IMG/VR virus record: IMGVR_UViG_3300024988_000006
Origin: a virus
DNA: 54,836 nucleotides
Reading direction: 5' to 3' (one strand)
A program made the position numbers and the translations under genes. Of this stretch, positions 11,180 to 17,507 are shown one piece after another. A model generated the notes under the pieces. The model saw only the letters and a program-made list of their open reading frames with translations. It made no database searches and was not told where the DNA came from. The stretch's first letter is position 1. Each line of letters starts with the position of its first letter.

Positions 11180-11211
11180 GTCCCCTATTATTGAAATTTA
11201 AAGGTTTAAAA

Positions 11212-12186
11212 ATGAGAAAGTTTACATCTATCGGACAATTCAGAAATGTGGTTGCTACTATTACCAACTACTACAACAAAATTCATTCCCCACATAAGAT
11301 CCCGACTCTCACGTTCATCGGAACTGTGAAGTTGCATGGTACTAATGCAGGATTACGGCGCTATCATGGAAAATTCCAGCCACAATCTCGTGAGCAGATT
11401 ATCGGTGTGGACAGTGACAATGCTGGATTTGCTAGATTCATTGCTGGTATTCCTGAGGACAAGCTAAATGCCTTGTTTGATCAGTTTTCAGCTGATCCCA
11501 ATGCCGACGTCTATTTGTATGGTGAGTGGGCTGGTAAAGGCATTCAAGACACCGTTGCGGTTGCTGGTCTCGATAAACATTGGGTTTTGTTTAATGCTAC
11601 CGTAAACGATAAGTACGTTGACATGTATGATTACAAGGACGTGTTTGATCACGATAACAGCATCTATAACATTTTTGAAATTCCGTATTACAAAATTGTT
11701 GTAGATTTCAAGAATCCTGCTCAAAGCATTCCCGAAATCGAACAGTTGACGCTTGCTGTTGAAGAGCAGTGTCCATGGGCGTTGAAGTTCGGCGTAGAGG
11801 GTATTGGAGAAGGTATTGTTTGGACGTGTGTAGAGCGGCCACATGATAGTGATTTGTTCTTCAAAACCAAAGGGACGAAGCACAGCAAGTCTAAAGTTCG
11901 CAAAGTTGCAACTGTTGACATCGAACGCGTGAATAGCATCAATGCTCTAGTGGACCTTGTAGTAACCACAGGACGTTTGGCGCAAGGGATCGATGTTCTT
12001 GTTAATCAAATGCACTTGGAACTTGATTCAAAAAATATGGGTGAGTATTTGAAATGGGTGGCAAATGATGTTATGAAAGAAGAAACTGATACCATTACAG
12101 AAAACGGTTTCGCATGGAAAGACATTGCAAAACAAGTCACCACCAAAGCTCGCGAATTTTTCTTTGCCAAAATGAATGAGTTTTGA
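11212..12186 (+). CDS. Rnl2-family RNA ligase
   Basis: Motif I KLHGTN, QSR, motif III YGEWAG, motif IV GEGIVW, motif V FKTK. Confidence 0.85.
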   Translation: MRKFTSIGQFRNVVATITNYYNKIHSPHKIPTLTFIGTVKLHGTNAGLRRYHGKFQPQSREQIIGVDSDNAGFARFIAGIPEDKLNALFDQFSADPNADVYLYGEWAGKGIQDTVAVAGLDKHWVLFNATVNDKYVDMYDYKDVFDHDNSIYNIFEIPYYKIVVDFKNPAQSIPEIEQLTLAVEEQCPWALKFGVEGIGEGIVWTCVERPHDSDLFFKTKGTKHSKSKVRKVATVDIERVNSINALVDLVVTTGRLAQGIDVLVNQMHLELDSKNMGEYLKWVANDVMKEETDTITENGFAWKDIAKQVTTKAREFFFAKMNEF

Positions 12187-12607
12187 AGTGAGCAAAACAC
12201 GTAAACTGTCAACTCACCAGCTGATTGGGGCGCCGCTCGATTGGGCGGTTGCCACAGCTTTGGGCGAAACTGAAGCAGATATGCCATTTGCGCAGTGGGA
12301 CACAAAAGCTATTGTTATTGATCATTACAATTTGCCGTTTTCAAATAGAACAGGCCGGACGTTTAGTCCTTCAACAAATTGGAACGAAGGTGGTCCGATT
12401 ATAAGTGCTTTGGGAATGGAATTTGTCCTCCAAGATGAAGAATCAGACGTAATATGGGCAATTCCTGCACGAACGATTTTAGAAAGAGTTAGGGCTAAAA
12501 AAGAGTGGCAAGGTTGTTATGGACCAACGCATCTTGTTGCTGCAATGAGGTGTTTTGTACTTAATGAATTGGGTGAGGAAATTGACGTTCCAGAGGAACT
12601 TTTATGA
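12176..12607 (+). CDS. NinX/DUF2591-family protein
   Basis: L-x-G-x-x-LDWAVA, FSPSTNW...GGPII and GPTHLVAAMRC. Confidence 0.8.
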   Translation: MSFEVSKTRKLSTHQLIGAPLDWAVATALGETEADMPFAQWDTKAIVIDHYNLPFSNRTGRTFSPSTNWNEGGPIISALGMEFVLQDEESDVIWAIPARTILERVRAKKEWQGCYGPTHLVAAMRCFVLNELGEEIDVPEELL

Positions 12608-13011
12608 AAATCAACACAGATCAATTGATTGGTTCTGCTCTCGACTGGGCAGTTGGACATGCAAACGGTTGGATAACGTACCCGACGGATTCGATTGAGC
12701 GCGGGTCAGTTTTCCACACAGACTCGTCCGTTGCGCCGTTCGGAAGAACAATAGACGTGGCTGAGTGGAAGCCATCAACCAATCCCGCTCAGGCATGGCC
12801 AATCATTGAGCGAGAAAGACTTAATTTTTTGGACAACGGAGACAGTATTTCCGCATACTATTCGCGTGGTCAAACTGTTTGCCAAAGATGGGGTGGTCCA
12901 ACGCATCTGGTTGCCGCAATGCGATGCTATATCGCATCCAAATTGGGTGATGAAGTGGATGTTCCCAATAACACAATCGGTGATATGCTACTGCGGATTA
13001 ACCAACGGTAG
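12604..13011 (+). CDS. NinX/DUF2591-family protein (tandem paralogue)
   Basis: LIGSALDWAV, WKPSTNPAQAWPIIERE and GPTHLVAAMRC. Confidence 0.8.
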   Translation: MKINTDQLIGSALDWAVGHANGWITYPTDSIERGSVFHTDSSVAPFGRTIDVAEWKPSTNPAQAWPIIERERLNFLDNGDSISAYYSRGQTVCQRWGGPTHLVAAMRCYIASKLGDEVDVPNNTIGDMLLRINQR

Positions 13012-13023
13012 GAGTAATTAAAA

Positions 13024-13881
13024 ATGAGTGAACAAGTGAATAGCGTAGGTGAGATGGTGGCGGCACGCACTTTCATCGACAAGAATGGTGGTTATCAAAC
13101 GATTAGAACTGGTGTCGATAAGGAGGCGCACGATGCCTGGCAACAAGTTACAAGCTGGGGCCTTAGCCGCGATGATTTTATTAGGCTGTCTTATTTCAAC
13201 GGCGACTTGGATAATGGTTCGGACGGAAGTAGCCCGGTAAATGGGTATGGAAATCATTCAAGTGATGTCGTCTATCGCGATGGTAATTCGGCGCTGACGC
13301 GGGATATGGTGTCCGAGTGGCTGTCCCACTATACAGCATTTGTTGATGGATACAGAATCCGAGCAAAGCAAGACGCAACACGAATCGAGGAGTTAGAAGC
13401 CGAACATGAGCAACGCAGGTCCGACCCCTATGCCCACTTGAAAGCAGCTGCGACTGATCCGACGAAGCAAGTGCAATTAATCGGTGTTTTACCCGTAATT
13501 CAATCGGGATGGCAGGATTCTGGATACCCCTGGCGGTGGAATTGGCCACCAGATTCATACGAAATCCGCGACAAGCCGGTGGCGAATACGCTGCCGGTGG
13601 CGTGGATCGGTTTTGATTCTGAGGGAGGAGCAGTCACAACCACCAAAAACCATGAGCGTATTGATCTTGAGCAACGTGGATTTGTGATGCACCCGCTTGG
13701 CTACCTCACCACACCCTCTGTATCTGCAAATAAAGTGCCGAATGAAACACAGGTGGCGGACGTTACGAAAGACGGGAGTGGGAGTGCCCTTCGGGAGACT
13801 CGCCATATTGCCAAGGGGCAATTGGAGTTCTTTCGTGAGATGAGGGCCGTTGGAGCACCCAAACCTGGAGAACAGTCATGA
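13024..13881 (+). CDS. hypothetical mosaic protein in a GC-richer patch
   Basis: AGGAG RBS; 285-aa ORF with a PVAW...PLGY segment typical of mosaic temperate-phage accessory proteins. Confidence 0.65.
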   Translation: MSEQVNSVGEMVAARTFIDKNGGYQTIRTGVDKEAHDAWQQVTSWGLSRDDFIRLSYFNGDLDNGSDGSSPVNGYGNHSSDVVYRDGNSALTRDMVSEWLSHYTAFVDGYRIRAKQDATRIEELEAEHEQRRSDPYAHLKAAATDPTKQVQLIGVLPVIQSGWQDSGYPWRWNWPPDSYEIRDKPVANTLPVAWIGFDSEGGAVTTTKNHERIDLEQRGFVMHPLGYLTTPSVSANKVPNETQVADVTKDGSGSALRETRHIAKGQLEFFREMRAVGAPKPGEQS

Positions 13882-14159
13882 GCGTGGAACAGAGAACACC
13901 AACCAATAGTCCGATCCTCACACTTGAGCGATTGCTTGCCGAGTCACAGGCACGGGAGGCAAAGCTACGCGACACTCTGAAACTCATTGAATCTGTTGGC
14001 CGTTTGGCATACAAGAAAATGGACGTTCCAGAGGCAGAACCTTTGTTGAATGGTCCGGCAGGCGGTCTGTTTTATGATACCAGTGAAAGACTCGTGGGAA
14101 TAGTGGCCATAGCAGCACAAGCACTTACTACCGTAAAGAGAGTGCCCGACAAAGAATAA
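13878..14159 (+). CDS. hypothetical protein
   Basis: GGAG RBS; ATGA overlap. Confidence 0.65.
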   Translation: MSVEQRTPTNSPILTLERLLAESQAREAKLRDTLKLIESVGRLAYKKMDVPEAEPLLNGPAGGLFYDTSERLVGIVAIAAQALTTVKRVPDKE

Positions 14160-14170
14160 ACGCAACCCTC

Positions 14171-14178
14171 AATAAATA
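14171..14178 (+). promoter_or_regulatory. T4-like late promoter box
   Basis: AATAAATA about 25 nt before ATG 14203; the same box recurs before structural genes. Confidence 0.6.
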
Positions 14179-14202
14179 CGGTTTTATTGATAAGGCACCT
14201 AA

Positions 14203-14667
14203 ATGAAATTGGACGAAATTGTAATTCATAAACTTGTTAGCAACGATACATTCATTGAGGAATTACGTGATTTGTTTGACAGAGCTGTTATGCCTGCATT
14301 TGTTGCAAAGATAATGGAGCTCAATTCGGGCGAAAACACTCCAGCGGCAGAACGCGAACGTCTTGTATTACGCGACGAAATTGCTCAAATTAAAGACATG
14401 CTCACAAAAACTTCGTTAAAACAATCAACAGGACGACAATTTATGCGAGGTAAATTAACTGAGTGGAAGAAAAATCACAAAAGAGCAAAAGATTTTATTT
14501 GGTCAGGTCGCCGAAACAAGGCCTTGACATGGAACAAGTACAATATCGATCTCTACAGTGGTAACGTAAGAGCTTACGGTGAACTGATGCAGTGGTTTAA
14601 AACAATGAAGTACAATAAATTTGTTGATAAAGACCTCGAAACGGGGATAATTACTCCAATTAGTTAA
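14203..14667 (+). CDS. putative late, head-packaged protein
   Basis: Late box upstream; MKLDEI N-terminus. Confidence 0.65.
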   Translation: MKLDEIVIHKLVSNDTFIEELRDLFDRAVMPAFVAKIMELNSGENTPAAERERLVLRDEIAQIKDMLTKTSLKQSTGRQFMRGKLTEWKKNHKRAKDFIWSGRRNKALTWNKYNIDLYSGNVRAYGELMQWFKTMKYNKFVDKDLETGIITPIS

Positions 14668-14678
14668 ATATCGGTTAA

Positions 14679-14911
14679 GTGTTGACTATAGCAGGCTAGC
14701 TTAAAAATGCGTCATTTTCTTTGACGAGCGTGCCCCCTGTGATTTAGTTTGGCAGTCGGGATAACCAAGCCCCGGAGAGCAATCTGTAAGTCGATTGTAG
14801 TTGGAGGATATAAGTGGCAAGCGGGAACAGCAAACTCGAGTAATGTTGTGAACCTTGTCCATTCCAATAACACAAACGCAAGCAAGTGCGAAGCTGAATA
14901 AGTCAACACCA
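14679..14911 (+). ncRNA. candidate structured non-coding RNA of unknown class (~230 nt)
   Basis: No credible ORF. Closing helix GTGTTGACT/AGTCAACAC, several internal hairpins with G-U pairs that form on the + strand, 3' ACCA followed by T-rich sequence. Confidence 0.6.
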
Positions 14912-14947
14912 TTTTATTAATGTTGTTTAAGATTGAGGCAAACGAAC

Positions 14948-15124
14948 ATGACTTCTGGCGAAAAGGATGCGTTATTGGCTCATCTAGAACTCAACTTTTT
15001 AATTTTGATAGACGCACACACAAAAGCAGGAAATATTGAAGAAGATTCTGTTGACGATATTTTGGAAGATGTGTATGATATTTTAAATGATCTGGACGAA
15101 GTCGTTTCACCAACAGAGTCCTAA
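14948..15124 (+). CDS. small acidic protein
   Basis: GAGG RBS before ATG 14948; D/E-rich C-terminal half. Confidence 0.55.
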   Translation: MTSGEKDALLAHLELNFLILIDAHTKAGNIEEDSVDDILEDVYDILNDLDEVVSPTES

Positions 15125-15474: not shown

Positions 15475-15489
15475 AGCAACCCAGTACCA

Positions 15490-15520
15490 TAAAAAAGAGG
15501 CCCGCCGGGCCTCTTTTTTA
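15490..15520. terminator. bidirectional intrinsic terminator
   Basis: TAAAAAAGAGGCCC-GCC-GGGCCTCTTTTTTA. Confidence 0.88.
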
Positions 15521-15937
15521 TGGAAAACCTATAAGAATTACTTGGCCTGTGAAATTGGTCGAAAACCTAATTTCAACAGTATTTGCGTCCAAAATTATTT
15601 CACTTTGTGGAATAATCTTTGCATATGTGCCGCCGCCATCGTCCACATAAGTAGTGATTTGTATAGAAGTAGTACCAAGATTGTGTGCAACCGTCCATGT
15701 CGTAGCTGGAGTAGACTGTAAGTGTTTGTGGGTTACCGTGCTGCTGTTCGGAGGCAATGAAATAGATTGCCACGATGATGCGTTGTTGTAAACATACAAA
15801 CCGTCCGTTGCTGGAACACCCGCATTTAAAAAGAAAAGTTCGCCGACATCAGGCAAAGATGGAAATGCACTTCCTGATGCAATGACCGAATTCAGTATTT
15901 CAGACCCTTCTGCAAGGTCGACGCCGTACATTTTCAT
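15518..15937 (-). CDS. virion accessory protein with a W-x-V-x-HNLG domain
   Basis: C-terminal TTWTVAHNLG...IIPQS domain shared with the fibre-cluster genes; late box upstream. Confidence 0.75.
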   Translation of the reverse strand: MKMYGVDLAEGSEILNSVIASGSAFPSLPDVGELFFLNAGVPATDGLYVYNNASSWQSISLPPNSSTVTHKHLQSTPATTWTVAHNLGTTSIQITTYVDDGGGTYAKIIPQSEIILDANTVEIRFSTNFTGQVILIGFP

Positions 15938-15973
15938 AATATGCTTACCCTATATGGTTTTTGTGTTTATTTT

Positions 15974-15985
15974 TATTTATAAATA
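15974..15985. promoter_or_regulatory. overlapping divergent late promoters
   Basis: The palindrome TATTTATAAATA gives a perfect TATAAATA on each strand between divergent genes. Confidence 0.75.
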
Positions 15986-15999
15986 TCAAAGGAGTGAAT

Positions 16000-16593
16000 A
16001 TGAGAATATCGGACATTTTACAAAACAAAAATACTGGCCCCTTAACAGAACACGAGCTGAAACTGTTAAAATCATGTACCCAATTTTTACACGAATCCTG
16101 TGGGCAACCATTATTAAAAAATCTATCACCAACATACAACAACTTTGCCAAAGTCAAGGTTCGTTTTCACGGGCGGCGTGACGCATTTATAGATACCTTC
16201 AATGAAGCCCTTGAAGACAAATTTAACGTGTCCAATTTACACCAGCGGGCCATATTTGCCAACGGTATAAAGTCATTTGCTGTAAACGAAGGCGCTGAAG
16301 CATTTTACATATTCCCCAAAAATGGGTACAACTTTATGTACAGCAAAGAAGTGGTCAACTCAAACGTAGAATACAAGCACACATTTGAGAACCTATTTGA
16401 GCAGTTTGGGGAGGATGGGGATCATGTTGCTACCATTGTTGCCGATTTGCTGCAATATACATACACGTCAGTGGCACTAAACGAAGGAATTAATGTAGGG
16501 GCTGAAATAATTTTATACAATGTACCCTTTTACTATGCAGTTAAACAATCAACGGTTGAAAATTATCAATCGTTGTTATCGTTATTGAAATAA
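16000..16593 (+). CDS. putative late, head-packaged protein
   Basis: AAGGAG RBS before ATG 16000; MRISDIL...LTE N-terminus; TATAAATA upstream. Confidence 0.7.
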   Translation: MRISDILQNKNTGPLTEHELKLLKSCTQFLHESCGQPLLKNLSPTYNNFAKVKVRFHGRRDAFIDTFNEALEDKFNVSNLHQRAIFANGIKSFAVNEGAEAFYIFPKNGYNFMYSKEVVNSNVEYKHTFENLFEQFGEDGDHVATIVADLLQYTYTSVALNEGINVGAEIILYNVPFYYAVKQSTVENYQSLLSLLK

Positions 16594-16635
16594 GATATTA
16601 TATATTTAAATTCATAATAACAAAGGAGATTGAGA

Positions 16636-16866
16636 ATGGCTCTCGATTATGTAGAACACGTGTTCGGTCCAGGTGAAACAATTCAGGCTATCATAAGAAA
16701 GAATAATCACATGGCCATGTCAAGCAAAATGTTACAAACATTAACTAATCGTTACAACGAACTCAACGAAAACAAAATACCTCGGCCGGGAGATAGGGTT
16801 AGAATACCACTATTTGTTGGATTTGTTGGAATGCCACAAAAAGAAAAGAGTTATACAAATGGTTGA
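16636..16866 (+). CDS. LysM-like small protein
   Basis: HVFGPGETIQAI...N...PRPGDRVRIP follows the LysM pattern; start at 16630 (TTG) or 16636. Confidence 0.55.
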   Translation: MALDYVEHVFGPGETIQAIIRKNNHMAMSSKMLQTLTNRYNELNENKIPRPGDRVRIPLFVGFVGMPQKEKSYTNG

Positions 16867-17203
16867 TATTCCTTTCGTTGTCGATGACATCATAATGCGT
16901 GTTGAACGCAATCCCGTTGCATGGAAGTATGCTAAATATGTGGCTAACGTGTGCTTTATTTTGGGTACATTAATGATGATTAGCCCACAGATTGCATCAC
17001 AATCAACATTACCGTGGAAGTTATACTTTGCGGGTAATTTGGTGTGGGCAGTCGATTCACTCTTGTTTAGAAACTGGGCATGGGTATTAATGGGTTCGTT
17101 TTTTGCGGGATGGGACGTACTTTTAATCATTACTAGGGTAATGGGTGTCGAGCTTTTGCCGTATTTTGCACCCGTAATTAAAATAATAGAGAAATTTATC
17201 TAA
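16859..17203 (+). CDS. membrane protein with several TM helices
   Basis: Multiple hydrophobic, Trp-rich segments. Confidence 0.65.
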   Translation: MVDIPFVVDDIIMRVERNPVAWKYAKYVANVCFILGTLMMISPQIASQSTLPWKLYFAGNLVWAVDSLLFRNWAWVLMGSFFAGWDVLLIITRVMGVELLPYFAPVIKIIEKFI

Positions 17204-17219
17204 ATAAGGAGAATAAGAA

Positions 17220-17507
17220 ATGGAAGTTAAGACGTTTAAATTTACAAATGGCGACGAAATCATGGGACGTGTTGTGGAGTGGTCCGATGATGTAACATAC
17301 AAGGTAGAAAAACCGAGAGGATTGTTACCCCAAAATATGGGGAATGGTCAAGTTGGTATTGCTTTTGTACCATGGGTCATCAGTAATCCAGATGGCGCTG
17401 TAGAAATTCTCAAATCAGCGCTCGCTATGACGCCTATGTCGCCGTCTAAAGAAATGGAAGATGCGTATCTTTCACAAACAACGGGTTTACAATTAGTGAC
17501 TGGATAA
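17220..17507 (+). CDS. Sm-like (LSm-fold) phage protein
   Basis: K-F-x-NGDEIMG...V-x-KP...IAFVPW...Y pattern seen in Sm-like proteins of T4-like phages; AAGGAG RBS. Confidence 0.6.
   Translation: MEVKTFKFTNGDEIMGRVVEWSDDVTYKVEKPRGLLPQNMGNGQVGIAFVPWVISNPDGAVEILKSALAMTPMSPSKEMEDAYLSQTTGLQLVTG

What the first reader, a model, noticed from the sequence alone, without database searches (positions are those of the whole stretch)
14663..14920. Candidate ~230-nt structured ncRNA with a tRNA-like ...ACCA end and repeated AGCAA loops
Seen in the sequence: this is one of the very few long gaps without a credible ORF in a densely coding genome, and it folds extensively. The closing helix is GTGTTGACT (14679-87) / AGTCAACAC (14901-09). 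Read as GTTGACT/AGTCAAC it is a 7-bp acceptor-like stem followed by A-CCA (14908-11) and then a T-rich tract. Other helices are TAGCTT/AAGCTG (14697-702 / 14891-96), CGTCA/TGACG (14710-26), GCAGTCGG/TCGATTGT (14752-59 / 14791-98) and TGTTGTG/CAATAACA (14844-72). Three hairpins carry (A)GCAA in or at the loop: AGA-GCAA-TCT (14776-85), CGGG-AACAGCAAA-CTCG (14822-38) and CGCA-AGCAAG-TGCG (14877-90). The G-U pairs only work on the + strand. A late-like GTTAAATA box (14663-70) sits just upstream of the 5' stem. Inference: a phage-encoded structured RNA, possibly a protein sponge or decoy, a tRNA-mimicking nuclease decoy, or a partner of the nearby Sm-like or WYL-like proteins. I do not recognise it as tRNA, tmRNA, RNase P, SRP or a group I/II intron.
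Basis: partly seen in the sequence, partly recalled or inferred. Interest (0 to 1): 0.78.

Follow-up and report, generated by a model that had tools for sequence, protein, structure and literature searches.

The report
Orphan folded RNA candidate, jumbo phage
A gene-free, GC-rich 280-base gap in one jumbo phage could encode a folded RNA closed by a 9-base-pair helix, but it has no relatives anywhere we could search, is missing at this spot in related phages and does not look like a tRNA, so it remains an unproven candidate.

Summary
The gap 14668-14947 of a 346-kb bioreactor jumbo phage is non-coding: all six frames score negative on codon usage. It is GC-rich for a spacer (46% over 14679-14911 vs 23-40%) and closed by a 9-bp helix. 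Folding beats shuffles only modestly (z -2.0 to -2.7; -1.2 without the closing arms; minus strand -0.3). The AGCAA repeat is not significant after correction. The ACCA is half-paired, there is no T-arm, and the late box is off-consensus. Rfam and ARAGORN find nothing. No homologue was found by BLAST, pattern scans or a covariance model over 61 related phage records. The element lies in a 2.75-kb insertion missing at this locus in the five closest relatives, so covariation could not be tested. Both closing arms equal the clade's -35 promoter word, which supports a real rival: a chance fold between promoter relics. Best reading (about 45%): a lineage-specific structured RNA co-transcribed late behind an orphan 154-aa gene, probably a protein-binding decoy or scaffold, and not a tRNA mimic. 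The scan had not seen this sequence on other DNA.

The parts
14679..14911 (+). candidate structured RNA (233 nt; 231 nt if cut at G14681)
   Evidence: non-coding in six frames, GC 46%, MFE -69.6, z -2.0 to -2.7
14679..14687 (+). 5' arm of closing helix P1; also equals the clade's sigma70 -35 word, with no -10 box downstream
   Evidence: P 0.96; 14-nt identity (14676-89) with an early promoter of relative L083
14901..14911 (+). 3' arm of P1 plus CA; ACCA only free if the 5' end is cut at G14681; on the minus strand again a -35 word without a -10 box
14710..14726 (+). 5-bp hairpin with 7-nt U-rich loop, stable under both energy models
   Evidence: P 0.96
14757..14774 (+). 4-bp GC hairpin with 10-nt loop, followed by a weak GNRA hairpin 14776-85 (P 0.4)
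   Evidence: P 0.94, kept
14742..14899 (+). Turner-model long arm (helix 14742-50/14891-99, P 0.97) making a tight three-way junction with P1; not kept under Andronescu parameters
14813..14863 (+). irregular hairpin whose 6-bp apical stem 14827-32/14844-49 (P 0.98) caps an 8-nt palindrome (14834-41) flanked by AA on both sides; possible dimerisation loop
   Evidence: dimer role is inference
14665..14670 (+). late-promoter-like TAAATA, off-consensus at -1 and overlapping the stop codon of the 154-aa gene
14172..14178 (+). consensus ATAAATA late box of the 154-aa gene; likely source of read-through transcription
   Evidence: motif as in phage CBB (PMC5259590)
14203..14667 (+). 154-aa orphan gene, real (12 synonymous vs 7 non-synonymous codon changes between strains), no homologue
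12187..14947 (+). lineage-specific insertion (two NinX-like genes, 285 aa, 93 aa, 154 aa, candidate RNA) between the RNA ligase gene and the 58-aa gene
   Evidence: ligase abuts the 58-aa gene in five relatives
15487..15523 (.). first hairpin terminator downstream (perfect 18-bp inverted repeat between convergent genes); none directly after the candidate RNA

Best explanation
The gap encodes a lineage-specific, roughly 230-nt structured RNA that came in with a 2.75-kb insertion. Shown: it is non-coding, GC-enriched, folds better on the + strand and can close with a 9-bp helix. Inferred: it is transcribed late, mainly by read-through from the consensus late box of the 154-aa orphan gene and perhaps from the weaker box at 14665. 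Host RNases would trim it back to the closing helix, which protects both ends. Speculative: the stable RNA works as a protein-binding decoy or scaffold, most likely with the orphan 154-aa protein whose C-terminal half is basic, and may dimerise through the palindromic loop at 14834-41. It is not a tRNA mimic.
For: All six frames score negative for codon usage, unlike every gene in the same insertion, so it is not a small or recently decayed gene. GC is 46% against 23-40% in other spacers. z is -2.6 on + and -0.3 on -. Known RNAs of a relative score -1.1 to -2.9 in the same test (GOLLD, tmRNA), so a modest z is no argument against it. P1 is robust in long contexts and in both energy models, and a 9-bp arm pair at the gap's start has p 0.017. 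The clade makes large ncRNAs: GOLLD and permuted tmRNA in G032, and a 236-nt abundant ncRNA in PA5oct (PMC7318152). The palindrome gives a -12.7 kcal/mol duplex.
Against: There is no homologue and no covariation. The element is absent at this locus in the five closest relatives. Without the closing arms z falls to -1.2. The central fold changes with the energy model. The box at 14665 is off-consensus and no terminator follows directly. Both arms of P1 are the clade's -35 word. Genes of the same insertion reach 43-51% GC (four of five), so the GC content may only reflect foreign origin. The partner protein and the dimer are untested.
Confidence: 0.43

Rival explanations
1. A functionless or merely regulatory spacer left by recombination. 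The closing helix is two facing copies of the clade's -35 promoter word whose -10 boxes are gone, and the rest folds by chance.
For: Positions 14676-89 are identical to an early promoter in L083. 8 of 39 such sites in relatives carry a -10 box, against 0 of 20 and 2 of 17 for shuffled control words. Relatives have a minus-strand -35 word 17-50 nt upstream of the 58-aa gene, where the 3' arm lies here at 38 nt. z without the arms is -1.2. No homologues exist.
Against: Neither arm has a -10 box, yet both 9-mers are intact. The closest relatives have no promoter at this junction. 280 non-coding nt at 43% GC is unusual in this dense genome.
Confidence: 0.35
2. A cis-acting mRNA element: a structured 3' UTR of the 154-aa gene or 5' leader of the 58-aa gene that sets processing, stability or differential expression in the late transcript.
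For: It lies between two same-strand genes with no terminator until 15487. P1 is followed by a U-rich tract and the RBS of the 58-aa gene.
Against: The 58-aa gene has no such leader in any relative. The fold is large for a simple stabiliser.
Confidence: 0.15
3. A tRNA-mimicking decoy ending in CCA, in the manner of T4 RNA C or D.
For: A cut at G14681 gives a 7-bp acceptor-like stem with free ACCA. T4 rnaD also ends in CACCA without a clear T-loop.
Against: There is no T-loop or cloverleaf. A and C of the ACCA pair with the 5' extension. There is no tRNA cluster in the window, unlike T4 rnaC/D. Given the helix, the extra CA costs only about 1 in 16.
Confidence: 0.05
4. A small protein gene: the 66-aa minus-strand ORF 14912-14712 or the 50-aa plus-strand ORF 14749-14901.
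For: A minus-strand ORF was called in two JGI assemblies.
Against: Codon log-odds are -7.4 and -5.7, there is no RBS, and the 66-aa ORF has no homologue. It was not called in the other assemblies.
Confidence: 0.02

Closest known systems
T4 stable RNAs RNAC and RNAD (rnaC, rnaD; species 1 and 2; PMC9697503)
   Same: Small phage RNAs of unknown function, classed as late; rnaD ends in CACCA.
   Different: They are 139 and 119 nt long and sit in the tRNA cluster; rnaC has a full T-arm. The candidate is 233 nt, has no T-arm, has no tRNA neighbours and shows no sequence or model similarity.
PA5oct ncRNA001 (236 nt; Lood et al. 2020, PMC7318152)
   Same: Same broad jumbo-phage group, same size, ORF-free; that RNA is 2-5% of phage reads.
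   Different: No sequence or model match. It sits behind a sigma70-like promoter and ends at a terminator; the candidate has neither.
GOLLD, ROOL and raiA-type ornate RNAs (GOLLD is Rfam RF02032)
   Same: Phage-borne, multi-junction RNAs with GNRA loops; GOLLD occurs in a related phage. Loop-loop oligomerisation of such RNAs is from my own knowledge.
   Different: No Rfam hit; the candidate is shorter and has no conserved family behind it.

Membership tests
tRNA / tRNA mimic | 7-bp acceptor stem with free NCCA | tested here: inconclusive
   Possible only if the 5' end is G14681; otherwise A14908 and C14909 are paired.
tRNA / tRNA mimic | T-arm with TTCRA loop next to the acceptor 3' strand | tested here: not met
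   No such motif on either strand; ARAGORN and Rfam negative.
T4 RNAC/RNAD-like stable RNA | lies in a tRNA cluster and is processed with it | tested here: not met
   No tRNA in the 55-kb window, unlike T4.
T4 RNAC/RNAD-like stable RNA | discrete stable RNA during infection | not testable with these tools
   Needs infection RNA data.
tmRNA (standard or permuted) | alanyl acceptor with G3-U70, T-arm and tag frame | tested here: not met
   ARAGORN and Rfam negative here, while both detect the permuted tmRNA of relative G032.
RNase P RNA | CR I and CR V forming P4 | tested here: not met
   Motifs absent; no Rfam hit at E <= 10.
SRP RNA | S-domain helix 8 loops | tested here: not met
Group I / group II intron | P7 R and S elements, or domain 5 | tested here: not met
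   Motifs absent; the element does not interrupt a gene.
CsrB / CrcZ-type protein sponge | repeated ANGGA loops or AANAANAA tracts | tested here: not met
   None inside the element on the + strand; the AGCAA repeat is not significant after look-elsewhere correction.
Conserved structured ncRNA (any family) | homologues with compensatory base changes | tested here: inconclusive
   No divergent homologue found, so covariation cannot be counted; the second strain is identical here.

The most novel reading that the evidence does not exclude
The 154-aa orphan protein and the 233-nt RNA form a newly acquired late-expressed ribonucleoprotein module of no known class. The RNA dimerises through a retrovirus-DIS-like palindromic loop and may be packaged into the virion and delivered with it.
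Probability: 0.1. Interest if true: 0.75.

Novelty: new member of a known kind. Interest (0 to 1): 0.33.

Why it matters
Jumbo phages make abundant non-coding RNAs whose jobs are unknown (T4 RNAC/D, PA5oct ncRNA001, GOLLD). A recently inserted RNA paired with an orphan late protein would show that such RNAs move as accessory modules and could be tested as anti-defence decoys. Without a homologue or a transcript, this one cannot yet be told apart from a spacer that folds by chance, so its value is as a lead.

Tried and rejected
No G000 genome is held, so paralogues elsewhere in the 346-kb genome could not be sought. blastn against phages and plasmids found nothing. Four pattern scans of viral contigs and one of metagenome contigs returned only the same phage or chance hits; L100 and several kinase genes looked similar and were checked and rejected. 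The single-sequence covariance model R1 found nothing significant in 61 related records, 9 of them complete. It did recover the positive control, but such a model is weak for distant homologues. nhmmer over 1.5 Mb of relatives found nothing. A weak CM hit in G032 (E 0.21) lies antisense to a 551-aa gene. The PA5oct ncRNAs do not match. Sequencing runs: no RNA holder listed. Strain identity over 14434-14942 is not evidence of selection: it includes 234 nt of coding sequence, and another 1.8-kb block (15645-17482) is identical too. The single-sequence fold of the 154-aa protein was unusable (pLDDT 45), and the Atlas gave no hit. One bioRxiv paper could not be opened and one script timed out.

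Full report
Context. The window is part of a 346,032-nt contig from an ENA metagenome assembly; runs holding the region are labelled bioreactor or wastewater. Its helicase is about 36-44% identical to those of RsoM2USA, XacN1, Xoo-sp13, Atu_ph07 and PA5oct, so it is a jumbo phage with T4-like replication genes. TAAATA boxes are enriched about 15-fold upstream of genes relative to coding sequence; an ATAAATA late motif is reported for phage CBB (PMC5259590). No whole genome was held.

Is the gap real? Yes. Between the 154-aa gene (ends 14667) and the 58-aa gene (starts 14948) there are only four small ORFs. They score -5.7 to -17.3 bits on a codon model on which all 14 control genes score positive, and they lack an RBS. 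All six frames of 14679-14911 are negative (-0.17 to -0.33 bits per codon), while every same-size piece of neighbouring genes has a positive frame. The 66-aa minus ORF has no homologue. GC is 46%, against 23-40% in other spacers, although four of the five genes in the same insertion are 43-51%.

Does it fold? Of 50 random 233-nt pieces of the window, 6 reach -2.1 and none reaches -2.5. Removing the two 9-nt arms drops z to -1.2, so much of the signal rests on boundaries chosen after the fact. GOLLD and tmRNA pieces of a relative score -1.1 to -2.9 in the same test, so the test neither proves nor excludes an RNA. Four elements are robust under both energy models: the closing helix P1, the hairpin 14710-26, the hairpin 14757-74 and the hairpin 14813-63. 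The Turner model adds helix 14742-50/14891-99 (P 0.97) and a tight three-way junction; the Andronescu set rearranges the middle.

All motifs are where stated. AGCAA occurs three times, 51 and 52 nt apart, but some 5-mer does so in 84% of shuffles, and only the first copy is a loop. The ACCA is half-paired unless the 5' end is cut at G14681, and there is no T-loop. The box at 14665 contains the upstream stop codon and has T at -1, where 69 of 86 upstream boxes in G032 have A. The 154-aa gene has a consensus box. No terminator follows the element; the first one is at 15487-15523. The 95-aa neighbour is Sm-fold (3BY7, TM 0.79) but is a core gene present in relatives that lack the element at this site.

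Known families. Rfam (gathering threshold and E <= 10), ARAGORN and motif tests for RNase P, SRP, group I and II introns, tmRNA, CsrA and Crc sites are all negative. The same tools do find GOLLD, a permuted tmRNA and tRNAs in the related genome G032. T4 rnaC has a T-arm, and both rnaC and rnaD lie in a tRNA cluster. PA5oct ncRNA001 has the same size but no similarity.

Conservation. In five close relatives (58-aa protein 65-78% identical) the RNA ligase gene abuts the 58-aa gene with 0-1 nt or an overlap between them. More distant relatives have a short promoter spacer or other small genes there. So 12187-14947 is a lineage-specific insertion. The 154-aa gene is an orphan but a real gene (12 synonymous, 7 non-synonymous codon changes between strains). 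A second strain is identical across the element, which is uninformative because the two strains are mosaic. BLAST, five pattern scans, nhmmer over 1.5 Mb and a covariance model over 61 records found no homologue. Most of those records are fragments and the model comes from one sequence, so absence elsewhere is not shown. Covariation could not be tested.

A rival origin for the helix. Both arms read as the clade's -35 word. Positions 14676-89 match an early promoter of L083 letter for letter, 8 of 39 such sites in relatives carry a -10 box, and relatives have a minus-strand -35 word at a similar distance from the 58-aa gene. Neither arm has a -10 box here. Two facing promoter relics would make P1 for free. 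Against this, intact arms with both -10 boxes missing fit selection on pairing at least as well.

How it most likely works. I put 43% on a lineage-specific structured RNA. The non-coding state, composition and folding potential are shown. Late read-through from the 154-aa gene's box and trimming back to P1 are inferred from the layout. A decoy or scaffold role with the orphan protein, and dimerisation through the 8-nt palindrome at the tip of the most stable hairpin (duplex -12.7 kcal/mol), are speculation, and the palindrome was noticed after the fact. The rivals are a chance-folding spacer between promoter relics (35%), a cis-acting mRNA element (15%), a tRNA mimic (5%) and a small gene (2%).

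Verdict. The gap and the closing helix are real; the tRNA-like and AGCAA-sponge readings are not supported. If it is an RNA, it is an uncatalogued member of a known kind, the small jumbo-phage RNAs of unknown function. Earlier scan notes had no look-alike sequence. They describe several better-supported jumbo-phage RNAs with real T-arms or covariation (unchecked notes), which this one lacks. Interest 0.33.

Noticed in passing
G032:C1:253693-253888 (minus; loci L262/L263): A GC-rich, ORF-free stretch of about 196 nt behind a perfect sigma70 promoter, just upstream of the GOLLD gene, with no Rfam hit; a possible second uncatalogued RNA (z only -0.8).
   Followed up: partly
G032 (IMG/VR 3300021514_000002, 363.5 kb): This complete relative carries GOLLD, a permuted tmRNA and two tRNA-like genes with a CUA anticodon, one of them inside the GOLLD hit.
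   Followed up: no
window 17220-17507 (+): The conserved 95-aa protein has an Sm/LSm fold closest to the marine metagenome protein 3BY7 (E 2e-9 by profile, TM 0.79); it is a core gene of this phage clade.
   Followed up: yes
window 11191-12186 and 12187-14947: The junction between the PF09414 RNA ligase gene and the 58-aa gene is an insertion hot spot: 2.75 kb here, about 600 nt with two small ORFs in L174, nothing in five closer relatives.
   Followed up: yes
window 12176-12607 and 12604-13011: Tandem NinX-like (PF10765) paralogues about 36% identical.
   Followed up: no
window 13940-14119: A second strain lacks 180 nt inside the 93-aa gene, so this gene is dispensable or decaying.
   Followed up: partly
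window 15051-15079 (+): A good sigma70-type promoter inside the 58-aa gene probably drives the 97-aa gene; relatives place this promoter at the end of the 58-aa gene.
   Followed up: partly
window 15487-15523: A perfect 18-bp inverted repeat forms a two-way terminator between convergent genes.
   Followed up: no
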